From the NCBI GenBank assembly GCA_964016885.1, contig OZ024740.1, positions 404,178,001 to 404,242,000 on the forward strand: a stretch of 64,000 nt of DNA, read 5' to 3'. The DNA is from Eledone cirrhosa. Its lineage: Eukaryota. Both the position numbers and the translations under genes were made by a program. The notes beneath the pieces are model-generated. The model made no database searches, was not told the DNA's origin, and worked only from the letters and a program-made list of their open reading frames with translations. Of this stretch, positions 45,785 to 52,700 are shown piece after piece (the first letter of the stretch is position 1; each line of letters opens with the position of its first letter).

Positions 45785-46192
45785 AGTAAAAAGAAATTCA
45801 AACACTCATATATAAGAAAAAACAACCTGAGTCCCCCACCCCCTTGTTTGAAGAACTTTGTAACGCGAACTGGCGCGAAATTTATTATACTTATTGACCA
45901 TCAAATCAAATTACTTCTCTAAAAACCTGGCATTTCGAGCCACTATTTTCCATATAAAACAAGTAACATTCAAAGACCAATAAGTTGTGAGAAAAACCAC
46001 AGACCCTCCATCTCAACTCTACCTTTGAAAAGCAGAAGAACTGCGAAACCGGTAAAGGAACCAAATAAATATATATTTTTTAAAAAAAGACTCCAGTTGC
46101 ATTTTCGATTTCATCGATTTCATCTTTTTTTCCTTATACTTTCACTCGTGTAGGACACCTCGGTTATTTTTCATTTTGTAAAAAAACCTCAC

Positions 46193-46200
<8 letters not shown>
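45785..46200 (+). mobile_element. Short non-coding PLE-like unit carrying a U3-A8 hammerhead (46022-46058)
   Basis: Homologous to 50987-51410, 51530-51875 and 52162-52700. Confidence 0.8.
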
Positions 46201-46225
<25 letters not shown>

Positions 46226-46265
46226 CGATATTAATAAATGGAAACTATATTTATAAAACCATATT

Positions 46266-46330
46266 TATTTCATTATACATATTTCAGGGATACCAAATTA
46301 AATTATGGTATGCCTTCATCAGACAAAATA
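46266..46330 (-). ncRNA. Hammerhead motif in the inverted pseudo-LTR copy
   Basis: Reverse complement of 50065-50129. Confidence 0.75.
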
Positions 46331-46671
46331 CAATATATAACAGTTTTACAAATAAGCTTTGACGTACCCTATTAAAATGCAACCATTGTTTTGGGAAGTC
46401 ATCCGGATAGTGAATTGTTTATATAACTTTAATAAGTCATAGTGTTAAGGACAATTAGAAAAAGATGGAGAGAAAGAAAAAGACGGGGAGAAAGAAAAAA
46501 CGTGGAGAAATATCGGGAGAGAGAGAGAGATGCATGGAGAAAAAAAAAGAAAGAGATAAGTAAAGACTGGAGGAAAGGAAGAAAGAAGAAAAAAGGAAGA
46601 AATAAGAAAAACAGAGGAAAGCAACAGAGAGATATTAAGTCAACAGACAGATAGAAAAACTCAAGATCAAT

Positions 46672-48350
46672 ATGAAGGACCACAAAAGAAACTTTGAAAA
46701 TGATTTACCAGTCAGATTAATTGCACCATCTAAATCTGACCTGGGCAAACTTAGCAAAAATATTCTAGACAGGGTAATACAACAAATTAAAAACTTATCT
46801 AATTTATCTTACTTAAAATTATGGAAAGGGACTAGTGAGGTTATCGATTGGTTTAAAGAAATTAAATATAACTATAATAATAAGTTTATTCAGCTGGATA
46901 TTGCTAACTACTACTCATCTATCACTCCTAATCTACTGAATAAGGCACTAAATTACGCATTTAAACATACTGACCTAACTAGCAATGAAATGCACATTAT
47001 ATTATCGGCAAGGAAAACATTGATAGAATTTAATAATCAACTCTGGACTAGGGCAGATAGAAATAATAATTTCGACATAACTATGGGATCATCAGACTCA
47101 GCTCAGGTAACGGACCTTGTGGGCCTATTTATAATTAATTCGCTACATAGAAAAATACCAGGTGTAACCGGAGGCTTATATCGTGATGACATGCTTTTAC
47201 TTATACAAAATAATAGCTGTGAACTAAATAGGAAAAGAAAACAAATTATACAATTTTTTAATTACCATAATCTAAAAGTAGAAATAGAGAATAACCATAA
47301 AATAGTCAATTTTCTTTACGTAACACTAAATCTCAACACATGTCTTCATTATCCATTTCACAAACTAAATGAGAACTTGAATTATGTTAATTTTAACTCT
47401 AATCACCCCAGATCTGTTAAAAATACTATAGTGAACTCTGTTCAAGAAAGAATTTCAAGAATTTCATCTAATAAAAATATATTTGATGAAAAAGCGCAGT
47501 ATTACAACGAAGCGTTAGGTAGAGCTGGATATAGAAATGAAATTAAATACATTGATAATAATAATAATAAGCAAACTAACCAAAATAATAACAATTTTAA
47601 TTATGGTAACAACTTTAGCAACTATAATAGAAAACATTACAATAATTCCAAAAGCCGAAAAAGAAATAGAACTAGAAACATATTATGGTTTACTCCCCCT
47701 TTCTCACTAAATATTAAAACCCCTATTGCTAAACTATTCTTTAAAGCTCTTGACAAACGCTTCCCTAGAACACATAAATATTACTCAAATTTTAATAGAC
47801 ACACTATAAAATTAACTTACTCGTCCACCAAAAATTTAGCACAAAATATTAATAGAATTAATAATAGAAATTTAAAACCTAACCAAAATACCAATAATAA
47901 CCCAAGCAATGTTCAATTGAATAACTGTAACTAGAAATAAATCTAACTGTCCGTTAAATAACAACTGCTTAGCTAAAAATGTAGTGTACAATTGTAATGT
48001 TAAAACTAATTTAAATTCGTTTTATGTTGGTTCTACCTCGACTGAATTTAAATTTCGCTTCAATAATCATAAAAATTCTTTCACAGATCCAAACAAAAAA
48101 TCTTCAACTTCGCTATCTAGCCTACTATGGGACCTAAAACGAGATAATGTTAAATATTCGATGACTTGGAATATTATTTCATAAGCTACTCCTTTTAATT
48201 CCTCTTCAGAAAATTGTGATCTTTGTATTGAAGAAATATTCTTTATATTAAAGTCCAAAATTTCCCTTAATTTAAGGAACAATTTATTCAGTTGCTGCAG
48301 ACATAGATTAAACTCAACGTTTAAATATAAATATAAATTTAAAATGTAGT
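46672..48350 (+). pseudogene. PLE RT plus C-terminal GIY-YIG endonuclease, one frameshift and one stop
   Basis: KDHK, VRLIAP, LDIANYYSSI, DITMGS, GLYRDD, SNHP, ILWFTPPFS; restoring 2 nt near 47932 gives CNCRNKSNCPLNNNC..NVVY..YVGST...RFNNH...CDLC..E....LN.R...CRH. Confidence 0.9.
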
Positions 48351-49420
48351 ATAATTAATTAAGTAATTTAGTTAATATATAAAACCTGTCGATAAATCAT
48401 TAGATTCCTTCACCTTTTCCTTTTTAAACTTTCTTCCTAAATATAAACATAGATATAATAAACTACTTTAAAATGTCTACACTTACAATATCTTAAATAA
48501 AATATACGTAGGATAAATTTCTATACTAAATATAAGGATATCTGTAGAATCTTTGGGCTTTAAATCTTTAAAATTTTTGAATTTTGAAAATTTTTTTAAT
48601 TCTTTTTGAAATTTTTTGAAATTTTTAGATGTTTAAATTTTTAAATTTTTAAATTATATTGATATAATATTTATTTAACTTTTATTTAATTTAATTTTTA
48701 TTTATTTTTATTAGTTTTGCTTTGATTCTGATAGCTTCTCATAATTCTCATAAGTCTACCCTTTCAATATCTTGATTGAAATATAAGTAGGATAATTTTC
48801 TATACTAAATATATGAAACATATTATTTTAACTTAAGATACTCTATAGTGTTTTAAAGATATTTAATGCTTTGACATTTCTAGAATTCGTTTGTCCTTTT
48901 GACTATACTGATATAGTTGTATTTCCAAAATATAATCCTTTGGTATTTTAAATTTATATTGGTATAATTATATTTCCAAAGTATAATCCTTAGTAATATA
49001 TTGATATTTGATTATCTCTATACAAAAGTATATGTGTGTATTAACATGCATATAAAAGTGTTATAGGTTTTTTTATGATTGTATATATGTCTGTATGTAT
49101 ACATGAGCGATGCCTGATGACGCACGCAGATATTTATTTATACATATATAGGTGTATATGTATATATGTGTGTGTATGTATATGTGTGGGTAAAAGTTAT
49201 GTTGCATAACCACGCAGTTTGGATTGCAGAAATGTTAAATGCATGAATGGTAATCATATATACGAAGTCATGAATGTTAATCGTATATATTTATGTGTAT
49301 ATATACTGTGAACTTTTTATAACACAACGAATGTATAGCAGTGATTAAGAGAAATCGTCTGCGCTTTATATGTCTATATTGTTGACTTGAGTAAATATAA
49401 TTTCTATTTTCAGGACGTGC

Positions 49421-49482
<62 letters not shown>

Positions 49483-50938: not shown

Positions 50939-50986
<48 letters not shown>

Positions 50987-50993
<7 letters not shown>

Positions 50994-51873
50994 GTGAGGT
51001 TTTTTTTACAAAATGAAAAATAACCGAGGTGTCCTACACGAGTGGAAGTATAAAGAAAAAGGGATGAAATCGAAAATGCAACTGAAGTCTTATTTTTTAA
51101 AAAAATATATATATTTATTTGGTTCCTTTACCGGTTTCGCAGTTCTTCTGCTTTTCAAAAGGTGAGTTGAGATGGAGGGTCTGTGGTTTTTCTCACATCT
51201 GGTTGGTCTCTAAATGTTACCTGTTTTATATGGAAAAAGTGGCTCGAAAACCAGGTTTTTCGAGAAGTAATTTGATTGGTTTGTCAATAATTATAATAAA
51301 TTTCGCGCCAGTTCGCGTTACAATAGTTCTTCAAATAAGAGAGGGGGGGGGGGGGTTGTCACAGGTTGTTTTTTCATATATGAGTGTTTGAATTTCTTTT
51401 TACTTGAAAAAATGAGGCTCACGAAGGCTTTTTTTTGGTTGGTTATAAATGAAATTTGGCTGTCACGTGAACAAGTTTTCATTACATTTTTGCGCCCTTA
51501 TTTGGAAAACTATTCTGTAGTCTTTATAGTGAAAAAACTCATATATGAAAAAACAACCTGTGACAACCCCCCCCCCCCCCCCTCTTATTTGAAGAACTAT
51601 TGTAACGCGAACTGGCGCGAAATTTATTATAATTATTGACAAACCAATCAAATTACTTCTCGAAAAACCTGGTTTTCGAGCCACTTTTTCCATATAAAAC
51701 AGGTAACATTTAGAGACCAACCAGATGTGAGAAAAACCACAGACCCTCCATCTCAACTCACCTTTTGAAAAGCAGAAGAACTGCGAAACCGGTAAAGGAA
51801 CCAAATAAATATATATATTTTTAAAAAAATAAGACTTCAGTTGCATTTTCGATTTCATCCCTTTTTCTTTATA

Positions 51874-51875
<2 letters not shown>
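50987..51875. mobile_element. Inverted dimer of the U3-A8 hammerhead unit (ribozymes at 51125-51162 - and 51761-51798 +)
   Basis: Arms near-identical over about 340 bp; CCTT-TTGAAAA-GCAG AAGAA CTGC-GAAA-CCGG-TA-AAGG followed by AATAAA. Confidence 0.88.
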
Positions 51876-51942
<67 letters not shown>

Positions 51943-52084
51943 ATTAAAATACTGGAGCGTGTTGGAGTTAAACACCCTCTTCGTATTATAGAAATGACAG
52001 TAAAAGGTATAGCTCAATGTAATTAAACAGAGTCGAAGAATTATGAAAGTAAAACAAAGAAGCCTTCAATACATCAAAAGTCTT

Positions 52085-52132
52085 TATTAGCCAACAATGT
52101 TTCGTCCTATTAAGGACTCATCAGGGCAATTA
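52085..52132 (-). ncRNA. Hammerhead ribozyme motif
   Basis: Minus strand ATTGCC-CTGATGA-GTCCT TAAT AGGAC-GAAA-CATTG-TT-GGCTAAT, then AATAAA. Confidence 0.8.
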
Positions 52133-52161
52133 AAACAACAAGAAGTATTATATATATATAT

Positions 52162-52700
52162 ATTAGAAAGTGAGGGTTTTTTTACAAAATGAAAAATAAC
52201 CGAGGTGTCCTACACGAGTGAAAGTATAAAGAAAAAAAGATGAAATCGGAAATGTAACTGGAGTCTTATTTTTTAAAATATATATATATTTATTTGGTTC
52301 CTTTACCGGTTTCGCAGTTCTTCTGCTTTTCAAAAGTAGAGTTGAGATGGAGGGTCTGTGGTTTTTCTCACATCTGGTTGGTCGCTGAATGTTACTTGTT
52401 TTATATGGAAAAAAGTGGCTCGAAATGCCAGGTTTTTAGAGAAGTAATTTGATTGGTTGGTCAATAATTATAATAAATTTCGCGCCAGTTCGCGTTACAA
52501 AGTTCTTCAAACAAGGGGGAGGTGGCACAGGTTGTTTTTTCATATATGAGTGTTTGGATTTCTTTTTATTTAAAAAAAAGGGGGGCTCACGAAGGCTTTT
52601 TTTTTAATAAACGTAATTTGATTGGTTATAAATGAAATTATGGCTGTCACGTGAACAAGTTTTCATTAAATTTTCGCGCCCTTATTTGGAAATCTATGCA
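52162..52700 (-). mobile_element. Fourth copy of the U3-A8 hammerhead unit (ribozyme 52300-52337)
   Basis: Homologous to 50987-51530. Confidence 0.8.

What the first reader, a model, noticed from the sequence alone, without database searches (positions are those of the whole stretch)
45785..52700. Four-copy family with a U3-A8 compensatory catalytic core (UUGAAAA) and palindromic ACCGGU stem III
Seen: CCTT-TTGAAAA-GCAG AAGAA CTGC-GAAA-CCGG-TA-AAGG at 51761-51798 (+) and 51125-51162 (-), with slightly altered stem I at 46022 and 52300. Established: C3-G8 form a Watson-Crick pair in the active hammerhead and the U3-A8 swap retains activity; loopless palindromic stem III is characteristic of ribozymes that cleave as dimers. 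Inference: a 38-nt dimer-dependent variant ribozyme that CUGANGA-based searches would miss, in a recently mobile ~400-550 bp non-coding unit.
Basis: partly seen in the sequence, partly recalled or inferred. Interest (0 to 1): 0.8.

Follow-up and report, generated by a model that had tools for sequence, protein, structure and literature searches.

The report
Hammerhead ribozyme in Penelope-like retrotransposon ends
The four repeats are cut-down ends of a very abundant Penelope-like jumping gene, each carrying a tiny hammerhead-ribozyme motif whose swapped core pair is already known from such elements and which would likely cut its RNA only slowly and as a pair, so this is mostly a new example of a known thing.

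Summary
The motif is real: four copies from three insertions, one with a broken stem I. It is not a separate 400-550 bp non-coding unit. It is the 3' pseudo-LTR of a young, roughly 4.7 kb Neptune-like Penelope retrotransposon (RT plus GIY-YIG). The genome holds at least 11,611 exact motif copies, and 38 of the 150 best protein hits keep the 775-aa frame. Three sister families keep the U3-A8 core and ACCGGU while flanks diverge to background and stems I/II change compensatorily; one subfamily pairs C with G8. Both U3-A8 and palindromic helix III were published for Penelope hammerheads in 2014, and this scan noted a similar motif in another genome. Two new wrinkles: (1) with A17, U3 is predicted to mispair with the cleavage-site base, like the inhibitory C3-G17; (2) copies' 5' ends pile up about 42 nt upstream of the core (12 of 30 in the least biased sample), not at the cut site (1 of 30), so uncleaved RNA is likely the main template. 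Cleavage and dimer dependence are untested; no RNA run was available. New member of a known kind; modest interest.

The parts
45777..46205 (+). Insertion 1: 5'-truncated 3' end (pLTR with tail) of the Neptune-like PLE, older subfamily, followed by (TA)n
   Evidence: 88.8% identity to the parent element in L034 from -249 relative to U3
46021..46058 (+). Hammerhead motif, U3-A8 core intact, stem I broken by a C.A mismatch
50981..51533 (-). Insertion 2, main arm: pLTR with tail, young subfamily, 3' end in (TA)n
   Evidence: 97.7% identity to the parent from -368 to about +172
51125..51162 (-). Hammerhead motif, 4-bp stem I, 4-bp stem II, ACCGGU stem III
51533..51873 (+). Insertion 2, inverted 5' arm: tail-less copy ending near +104/+108 in (TA)n
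   Evidence: 98.5% inverted repeat of the main arm; -226 to +108
51720..51727 (+). Position (-45 to -38 from U3) where 5' ends of genomic copies pile up; inferred transcription start in the pLTR
   Evidence: 12 of 30 and 40 of 88 copies; 44 of 101; the start-site reading is inference
51761..51798 (+). Hammerhead motif; U3 at 51765; predicted cut between A17 (51794) and 51795
52157..52889 (-). Insertion 3: longer 5'-truncated copy of an older subfamily reaching into the 3' UTR
   Evidence: 86.2% identity to the parent from -537
52300..52337 (-). Hammerhead motif, 3-bp stem I (CUU/AAG)

Best explanation
The repeats are 5'-truncated, partly inverted 3' ends (pseudo-LTRs) of a roughly 4.7 kb Neptune-like Penelope retrotransposon, and the 38-nt motif in them is a minimal type I hammerhead with a U3-A8 core and ACCGGU stem III that is predicted to cut only slowly, likely after two copies pair through the palindrome and likely with help from the element's protein. 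Shown: the parent element, the copy numbers, the two fixed 3' ends 68 nt apart in (TA)n, the pile-up of 5' ends about 42 nt upstream of the core, and conservation of the core across sister families. Inferred mechanism: RNA starts at about -42 in an upstream pLTR. The element's RT starts internally at one of two sites (about +104 and +172), as shown in vitro for the anole Poseidon element. Priming in the 5' pLTR runs off at the RNA start and gives the very common 150/215-bp inserts; priming in the 3' pLTR gives longer, variably truncated inserts. Because these inserts carry an intact hammerhead and no excess begins at the cut site, uncleaved RNA is likely the main template. U3 pairing with A17 would damp the ribozyme until dimerisation or protein binding releases it, so cleavage would act late (releasing the RNA from read-through transcript, or limiting it) rather than making the template end.
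For: Parent: L034 minus strand has a 775-aa RT + GIY-YIG frame with a CxxxxCxxC linker, then about 1 kb of 3' UTR, then the unit; a partial pLTR and an inverted copy lie upstream. 38 of 150 scored protein hits have the 775-aa open frame, one flagged with a stop inside the match (counted by eye). 5 of 20 near-full-length loci have a tandem upstream pLTR reaching past -42, so two hammerheads could sit in one RNA. Copy counts: 11,611 exact 30-mers, control 0, first 100 all U3-A8; 19,910 with free stem II, control 40. Sister families B, D and E sit downstream of RT/EN pieces 34-58% identical to the parent, share the core and ACCGGU, and have flanks at shuffled-level identity to this family (0.44-0.56 vs 0.46-0.52). 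With the core left free, family D keeps U3-A8 in 95 of 100 listed rows, and N7 is its most variable core position (15 of 100, by eye). Stem I covaries between families (CCUU/AAGG, GCAA/UUGU, UAAU/AUUG). In family E the base 3' of stem I is C in 9 of the 12 G8 rows and mostly U in A8 rows (by eye). Dimer modelling gains -7.5 kcal/mol for CCGG against -2.6 and -3.8 for the non-palindromic orders. Ends. Literature: PMC4209133, PMC11167929, PMC2377424, PMC3884650, PMC3088659.
Against: No cleavage was measured. Within the family the test is weak: core 9 of 968 differences vs flank 358 of 7,792, but cells are not independent, and columns with a shared variant are 0 of 11 vs 16 of 131 (p 0.61). C11.1 differs in 14 of 88 copies, and the oldest copies examined have a 3-bp stem II and only 1 contiguous stem I pair. 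Family B has a U.U at the base of stem II and a 2-bp or offset stem I; family E has irregular stem I and a one-base insertion after position 3 in some subfamilies. These fit relaxed or lost catalysis. The monomer is not unusually stable. The -42 boundary has no RNA support. Many sampled copies are arms of one insertion and all came from the first part of contig C1, so the counts are not independent draws. No tree was built for the Neptune assignment.
Confidence: 0.78

Rival explanations
1. The motif descends from a hammerhead but no longer cuts; it is kept as an RNA-pairing, protein-binding or promoter-region element of the pLTR.
For: U3-A17 pairing is predicted in 56% of the monomer ensemble and is the lowest-energy dimer, -20.3 vs -18.9 kcal/mol for the form with U3 free. 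There is no excess of 5' ends at the cut site. Sister families have weak stems and core insertions. Hammerhead mutants did not affect insertion of the anole element in vitro.
Against: All catalytic positions (G5, A6, A8, A9, G12-A14, A15.1, U16.1) are kept across families with background-level flanks while N7 and loop II vary. The 3-8 pair covaries in family E. The young subfamily gained a fourth pair in stem I and in stem II.
Confidence: 0.22
2. The ribozyme is active but as a protein-assisted monomer; the palindrome is a by-product of the minimal stem III.
For: The anole Poseidon hammerhead cleaves only when the element's protein is added (PMC11167929). Most RNAs starting at -42 in short copies would hold one hammerhead.
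Against: CCGG is kept across four families despite being a CpG site. A monomeric stem III costs about 5.4 kcal/mol. S. mansoni min-hammerheads cleaved as dimers and trimers but not as monomers.
Confidence: 0.2
3. One reading: the short unit is a separate non-autonomous element spreading from its own master copies.
For: More than half of sampled copies are short with a shared 5' boundary (62 of 101 start at -45 to -27). Non-autonomous PLE derivatives exist.
Against: The same boundary occurs in young (17) and older (23) subfamilies, from 75% to 99% identity, and with both 3' ends. Copies continue seamlessly into UTR, endonuclease and RT. No tandem arrays of the short unit were seen in the loci examined.
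Confidence: 0.07
4. Chance resemblance to a hammerhead in an A-rich pLTR, amplified by transposition.
For: UUGAAAA and GAAA are low-complexity; Rfam gave no hit; fold z-score -0.94.
Against: A hammerhead descriptor finds 8 hits in the window vs a mean of 0.13 in 30 shuffles. The motif sits at the pLTR position where canonical PLEs carry hammerheads and is conserved, with covarying stems, in sister families.
Confidence: 0.02

Closest known systems
U3-A8 min-hammerheads of Schistosoma mansoni Cercyon PLEs (PMC4209133; main text and Fig. S3 rows 3 and 4)
   Same: Type I minimal hammerhead in a pLTR with U3-A8; one listed example has the same UUGAAAA core; about 1,300 mostly solo copies, often as close inverted pairs for min-HHRs in that genome.
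   Different: Those have a 2-bp helix III (ACGU or AGCU), an extra base after A9, and U or G at position 17. Here helix III is the 6-nt palindrome ACCGGU, there is no extra base, position 17 is A, and the parent is Neptune-like.
Hammerhead of the Neptune-like MjPLE01 of Marsupenaeus japonicus (PMC4209133 Fig. S3; clade note in PMC8557442)
   Same: Same architecture: 7-nt core directly followed by a 4-bp stem II, a 6-nt palindromic helix III (AGCGCU) and A17.
   Different: Its core is canonical C3-G8, so there is no 3-17 pairing conflict; that element lacks the endonuclease.
Poseidon element PAc of Anolis carolinensis (PMC11167929)
   Same: Hammerhead near the pLTR-ORF junction; two RT start sites that define the tail; unprocessed RNA is the dominant template; AT-rich targets.
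   Different: PAc has a canonical core overlapping the start codon and a single ORF. Here the hammerhead and both inferred RT starts lie upstream of the ATG, the tail is about 68 nt, and there are two overlapping ORFs. Its mechanism was shown in vitro; here it is inferred from genomic ends.
Neptune clade EN+ Penelope-like elements (PMC8557442)
   Same: RT followed by a CX2-5CxxC linker and C-terminal GIY-YIG; partial tandem and inverted pLTRs; optional tail; (TA)n targets; RT3/RT4 and linker stretches resemble the Neptune rows of Figs S1-S2 by inspection.
   Different: Two overlapping ORFs (about 400 and 775 aa) rather than the single ORF stated for canonical EN+ PLEs; no tree was built.
Animal non-LTR retrozymes (bioRxiv 10.64898/2026.07.22.740005)
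   Same: Short, non-coding, type I hammerhead-bearing sequences derived from PLE pLTRs.
   Different: Retrozymes are tandem arrays with a hammerhead in each unit; these copies are solo or inverted pairs and are contiguous with a coding parent.

Membership tests
Minimal type I hammerhead of PLEs | Core positions 3-9 and 12-15.1, 16.1, H17 with a Watson-Crick 3-8 pair | tested here: met
   U3 U4 G5 A6 A7 A8 A9, G12 A13 A14 A15.1, U16.1 A17 in all four copies; U3-A8 is a described natural pair.
Minimal type I hammerhead of PLEs | Stems I and II can form; G10.1-C11.1 closing pair | tested here: met
   4 + 4 bp in the young copies, 3 + 4 at 52333; stem I broken at 46025. Compensatory stem I between families.
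Minimal type I hammerhead of PLEs | Loopless or palindromic helix III | tested here: met
   ACCGGU; intermolecular duplex forms in the predicted dimer.
Minimal type I hammerhead of PLEs | Located in the pLTR of a PLE | tested here: met
   About 1 kb after the endonuclease stop and about 170 nt before the 3' end in L034; also in upstream tandem pLTRs.
Minimal type I hammerhead of PLEs | Core more conserved than flanks | tested here: met
   Met between families; inconclusive within the family (p 0.61 on shared-variant columns).
Minimal type I hammerhead of PLEs | Extra base between A9 and stem II (consensus feature, with listed exceptions) | tested here: not met
   Absent in this family; also absent in the M. 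japonicus and S. kowalevskii(2) rows of Fig. S3, so not defining.
Minimal type I hammerhead of PLEs | Self-cleavage, as a dimer | not testable with these tools
   Needs an in vitro assay; only nearest-neighbour energies were computed.
Rfam hammerhead families | Score at or above the gathering threshold | tested here: not met
   0 hits in the window, including the canonical-core motifs of neighbouring elements; not filed under any Rfam family.
EN+ Penelope-like element | RT plus C-terminal GIY-YIG endonuclease | tested here: met
   Pfam RVT_1 3.7e-07 and GIY-YIG 2.3e-06, both above cut-off; 753 homologues at E <= 1e-30.
EN+ Penelope-like element | Partial tandem pLTR, inverted 5' copy, optional tail, 5' truncation | tested here: met
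   3' ends 57 at +172, 40 at +104/108, 4 other of 101.
Neptune clade | CX2-5CxxC linker before the endonuclease and (TA)n targeting | tested here: met
   CGRSNCGTC in P0001; (TA)n after 3' ends; compared by eye with Fig. S2.
Neptune clade | Single ORF | tested here: not met
   Overlapping ORFs of about 400 aa and 775 aa recur across copies; hence 'Neptune-like' only.
Neptune clade | RT phylogenetic placement | not tested
   No tree with reference elements was built.
Non-LTR retrozyme | Tandem array of short units, each with a hammerhead, without a contiguous coding region | tested here: not met
   Solo or inverted copies contiguous with the coding parent.

The most novel reading that the evidence does not exclude
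A whole lineage of Neptune-like elements (over 21,000 motif copies, four families) has fixed U3-A8-A17 as a built-in brake: U3 pairs with the cleavage-site adenine, mimicking the inhibitory C3-G17, so that the RNA stays intact for internally primed reverse transcription to its 5' end, and the ribozyme fires only when dimerisation through ACCGGU or the element's protein flips U3 onto A8. The genome's insertion ends would then be a large in vivo record that PLE hammerheads are timed switches rather than template-end makers.
Probability: 0.2. Interest if true: 0.62.

Novelty: new member of a known kind. Interest (0 to 1): 0.32.

Why it matters
What hammerheads do in Penelope-like elements is still open. 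This young family offers many copies with an open RT-endonuclease frame and thousands of insertions whose ends can be read as a record of the RNA template: they point to a start about 42 nt upstream of the core and to uncleaved RNA, matching an in vitro result from a different clade. The U3-A8-A17 combination gives a cheap bench test of self-damping. In practice, CUGANGA searches would find 99 ACCGGU-type hammerheads in this genome against 19,910 with positions 3 and 8 freed, so ribozyme counts in such genomes are badly underestimated.

Tried and rejected
Rfam at gathering score: 0 hits. RNA evidence: no RNA holder listed, which is no evidence either way; contigs of four coded runs of unknown kind gave no cover past 51798 and cannot show RNA ends. 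The neighbouring RT ORF at 46639-47934 was considered as the parent and rejected: about 24-26% identity to P0001, its own pLTR and canonical-core motif, and Hydra-clade RT4 by inspection. A DNA transposon with long terminal inverted repeats was rejected: the arms have variable inner ends and one runs into RT. A C3-G8 subfamily inside this family was not found: 50 of 50 C3 copies of the exact 30-mer are C3-A8; one old C3-G8 copy (L118) may be a double mutation. A pile-up of 5' ends at the cut site was not found: 226 genome-wide matches, many of them point mutants or duplications, against 14,979 copies of a downstream anchor; 1 of 30. A mini-intron from GTGAG at -38 was considered and dropped because older copies read GCGAG and no such joint appears. 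The hairpin at -42 to -12 as an RT stop was rejected because RT would stop at its 3' base (inference). 5' boundaries in families B and E were too noisy to read. Papers not held: Lunse et al. RNA Biol 2016 and Przybilski and Hammann RNA 2007; the first may already list this variant. Literature searches for 'C3U' + 'G8A' and 'U3-A17' with 'hammerhead' gave 0 papers; 'octopus' + 'Penelope' + 'hammerhead' (a host guess from recall, not tested) listed 4 works, none on this family by title. The scan's index had no look-alike sequence.
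Full report
Observation. The motif is at 51761-51798 (+) and 51125-51162 (-), with variants at 46021-46058 (+) and 52300-52337 (-): 4 matches against a mean of 0.12 in 100 shuffles. The 30 nt from U3 to A17 are identical in all four. Contiguous stem I pairs number 4, 4, 3 and 1; the copy at 46025 has a C.A mismatch. The copies at 50981-51533 and 51533-51873 are the two arms of one inverted insertion, so there are three insertions. The monomer folds no better than shuffles (z -0.94), and Rfam gave 0 hits. 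A simple hammerhead descriptor found 8 hits in the window, 3 of them from this family, against a mean of 0.13 in 30 shuffles.

The unit is the end of a coding element. A DNA search of the 3.0-Gb genome gave 821 candidates, 40 scored, many as close inverted pairs. Sequence between such pairs encodes GIY-YIG and RT. L034 holds a near-complete copy on the minus strand: a partial upstream pLTR, an ORF of about 400 aa, an overlapping 775-aa frame, about 1 kb of 3' UTR, then the unit, with an inverted copy further upstream. The 775-aa protein hits Pfam RVT_1 and GIY-YIG above cut-off; the first ORF has no hit. It has 753 homologues at E <= 1e-30 among 7,462 candidates. Its CGRSNCGTC linker and RT3/RT4 stretches resemble the Neptune rows of Figs S1-S2 of PMC8557442 by inspection; no tree was built. 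Of 150 scored protein hits (3,930 candidates), 38 show the 775-aa open frame, one with a stop flagged inside the match (counted by eye). So the family is young and the two-ORF layout is native. In 20 of those loci, 9 have a tandem pLTR directly before ORF1 and 5 of these reach past -42.

Copy number and the 3-8 pair. The exact 30-mer with positions 3 and 8 free (Y, R) has 11,611 matches, control 0; the first 100 are all U3-A8. All 50 copies with C3 are C3-A8 single changes. Freeing stem II and positions 7 and 17 gives 19,910, control 40. Requiring canonical CUGANGA with ACCGGU gives only 99, control 5, mostly an unrelated family C.

Is the core conserved? Within the family I took 88 copies found by flank anchors (14,235 matches; I fetched loci for most of the first 100 listed, all from the start of contig C1). 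Non-CpG core cells differ in 9 of 968 cases, flank cells in 358 of 7,792. These cells are not independent, and columns with a shared variant are 0 of 11 vs 16 of 131, p 0.61; C11.1, a CpG site, differs in 14 of 88. That test is inconclusive. Between families it is clear. A pattern for a different stem II found 1,705 matches, control 0; of the first 100, 98 are U3-A8, 1 U3-G8 and 1 C3-A8, with N7 varying (by eye). These fall into families B, D and E. RT/EN pieces 34-58% identical to the parent lie beside them in 8 B loci and 1 D locus (of 30 loci) and in 1 of 30 E loci. Their 60-80 nt flanks match family A no better than shuffles (0.44-0.56 vs 0.46-0.52). To remove the bias of searching by core, I anchored D and E on flanks only. 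D (273 matches) keeps U3-A8 in 95 of 100 listed rows, with N7 the most variable core position (15 of 100, by eye). E (228 matches, control 7; about 6 of the 100 listed rows are background) is mostly U3-A8. 12 rows have G8, and in 9 of them the base 3' of stem I is C, usually followed by one inserted base before U4; the 14 A8 rows with such an insertion all have U there (by eye). This is one lineage-level compensatory change, not many. Stem I covaries: CCUU/AAGG in A, GCAA/UUGU in D, UAAU/AUUG in one B copy. Against this reading, B has a U.U at the base of stem II and a 2-bp or offset stem I, E has irregular stem I, and the oldest A copies examined have a 3-bp stem II and one contiguous stem I pair.

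What the ends say. 3' ends fall at about +172 (57) or +104/108 (40), 4 elsewhere, of 101 copies, followed by (TA)n: a 68-nt optional tail. 5' ends pile up upstream of the core: 12 of 30 copies picked by an anchor downstream of the cut start at -45 to -40 and 1 of 30 at the cut (+30); 40 of 88 flank-anchored copies start at -43 to -39. In the pooled set, 44 of 101 start at -45 to -38 against 4 in the 55 nt upstream; they include 17 young and 23 older copies, from 75% to 99% identity, and both 3' ends (this pool under-samples ends inside the motif, and arms of one insertion are not independent). Genome-wide, only 226 matches begin near the cut or have lost both stem III Gs, against 14,979 for a downstream anchor; by my estimate that is about the background truncation rate. 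Inference: -42 is the RNA start in the pLTR (Penelope has an internal pLTR promoter, PMC2377424, passages), RT primes internally at two sites that define the tail, and uncleaved RNA is the main template, as shown in vitro for the anole Poseidon element (PMC11167929, parts 1-2 of 4 read).

Predicted chemistry. A monomeric stem III costs about 5.4 kcal/mol. Two 38-mers are predicted to pair through ACCGGU, gaining -7.5 kcal/mol against -2.6 and -3.8 for non-palindromic orders of the four middle bases and -5.1 to -6.7 for the other palindromic orders. The model also pairs U3 with A17 (probability 0.56 in the monomer; -20.3 vs -18.9 kcal/mol in the dimer). In canonical hammerheads the analogous C3-G17 pair is the presumed reason G17 slows cleavage 8- to 100-fold in stabilised ribozymes and more in minimal ones (PMC3884650, passages). 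Nearest-neighbour energies ignore core tertiary contacts, so this is a prediction only. I put real cleavage at about 0.65-0.75 and dimer dependence, given cleavage, at about 0.7.

Comparison with what is known. PMC4209133 (parts 1-2 of 4 of the text, parts 1-2 of 3 of supplementary file 2; file 1 could not be searched) reports U3-A8 min-hammerheads in S. mansoni Cercyon elements (about 1,300 hits), palindromic helix III in several PLEs, and weak dimer-only cleavage in vitro. In its alignment the two U3-A8 rows have G or U at 17, and the M. japonicus row has this family's architecture with C3-G8 and A17; I saw no row combining U3-A8, a 6-nt palindrome and A17. PMC3088659 (passages) states that natural U3-A8 covariation exists and had been shown active in vitro. 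PMC8557442 (passages, one supplement part) describes the tandem/inverted pLTR, tail and (TA)n features. PMC6765202 (passages) reviews the dimer model. The retrozyme preprint was read in part 1 of 5. Lunse et al. 2016, the paper most likely to hold this variant, was not available. Searches for 'U3-A17' or 'C3U' + 'G8A' with 'hammerhead' gave 0 papers, and 'C3-G8'/'U3-A8' gave 2; these cover only the held library.

Verdict. A genuine-looking minimal hammerhead in the pLTR of a young, very abundant Neptune-like PLE: a new member of a known kind. The added value is the end-mapping and the predicted U3-A17 brake, both testable. Interest 0.32.

Noticed in passing
window 46218-50177 (+): A different, 5'-truncated PLE with Hydra-clade RT4 by inspection (RT frame 46639-47934, GIY-YIG frame 47921-48184), 3' pLTR 49736-50177 and its inverted copy 46218-46666. 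Both pLTR copies carry a canonical-core (CUGAUGA) hammerhead-like motif at 50073 (+) and 46322 (-) with a long stem II and irregular stem III.
   Followed up: partly
window 52085-52130 (-): Canonical-core hammerhead (C3 at 52124, stem II GUCC/GGAC, stem I GCC/GGC) in a 220-bp fragment of yet another repeat, wedged between two copies of the finding's family.
   Followed up: no
window 8835-9349: Inverted pair (92% arms) carrying canonical CUGAAGA hammerheads at 9155 (+) and 9029 (-); probably another PLE family's pLTR.
   Followed up: no
window 50428-50910 (+): C-terminal fragment of a third PLE-like ORF ending in a truncated GIY-YIG motif; a 70% related piece lies at 10693-11120.
   Followed up: partly
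L034:4661-4748 (-): ORF1 (about 400 aa, no Pfam hit) overlaps the RT-EN frame by about 30 codons. A U-UUU-UUA slippery-like heptamer and a weak hairpin lie in the overlap in all 20 loci and in an older copy, but are altered in two others; a GUG also sits where homologues have their called start. Either -1 frameshifting or a separate start could apply.
   Followed up: partly
L301, L305, L299, L308 and other rows (family E): Subfamilies with one extra base between positions 3 and 4 of the hammerhead core, with C going with G8 and U with A8; a core-insertion variant whose activity is unknown.
   Followed up: partly
L088-L115 (family C) and L122:719 (family F): Further ACCGGU hammerheads: family C has a canonical core, C17 and a two-base offset stem I (most of 99 hits); one F copy has U3-A8 with C17 and a 5-bp stem II, i.e. 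without the U3-A17 conflict.
   Followed up: partly
G000:C1:348863669-348949714: Seven copies of the same C3-A8 variant, six of them spaced about 9.6 kb apart, suggesting a tandem segmental amplification.
   Followed up: no
window 43602-44021 (+): Fragment of a LINE-type RT (weak RVT_1 and DUF6451 hits below cut-off).
   Followed up: no
window 45097-45320 and 45412-45667: Two short hairpin-like inverted repeats between (TA)n runs; the second has relatives in L036. They may be fold-back ends of other PLEs.
   Followed up: no
window 53304-53497: A roughly 190-bp dispersed repeat with at least eight related copies in the window, SINE-like by size.
   Followed up: no
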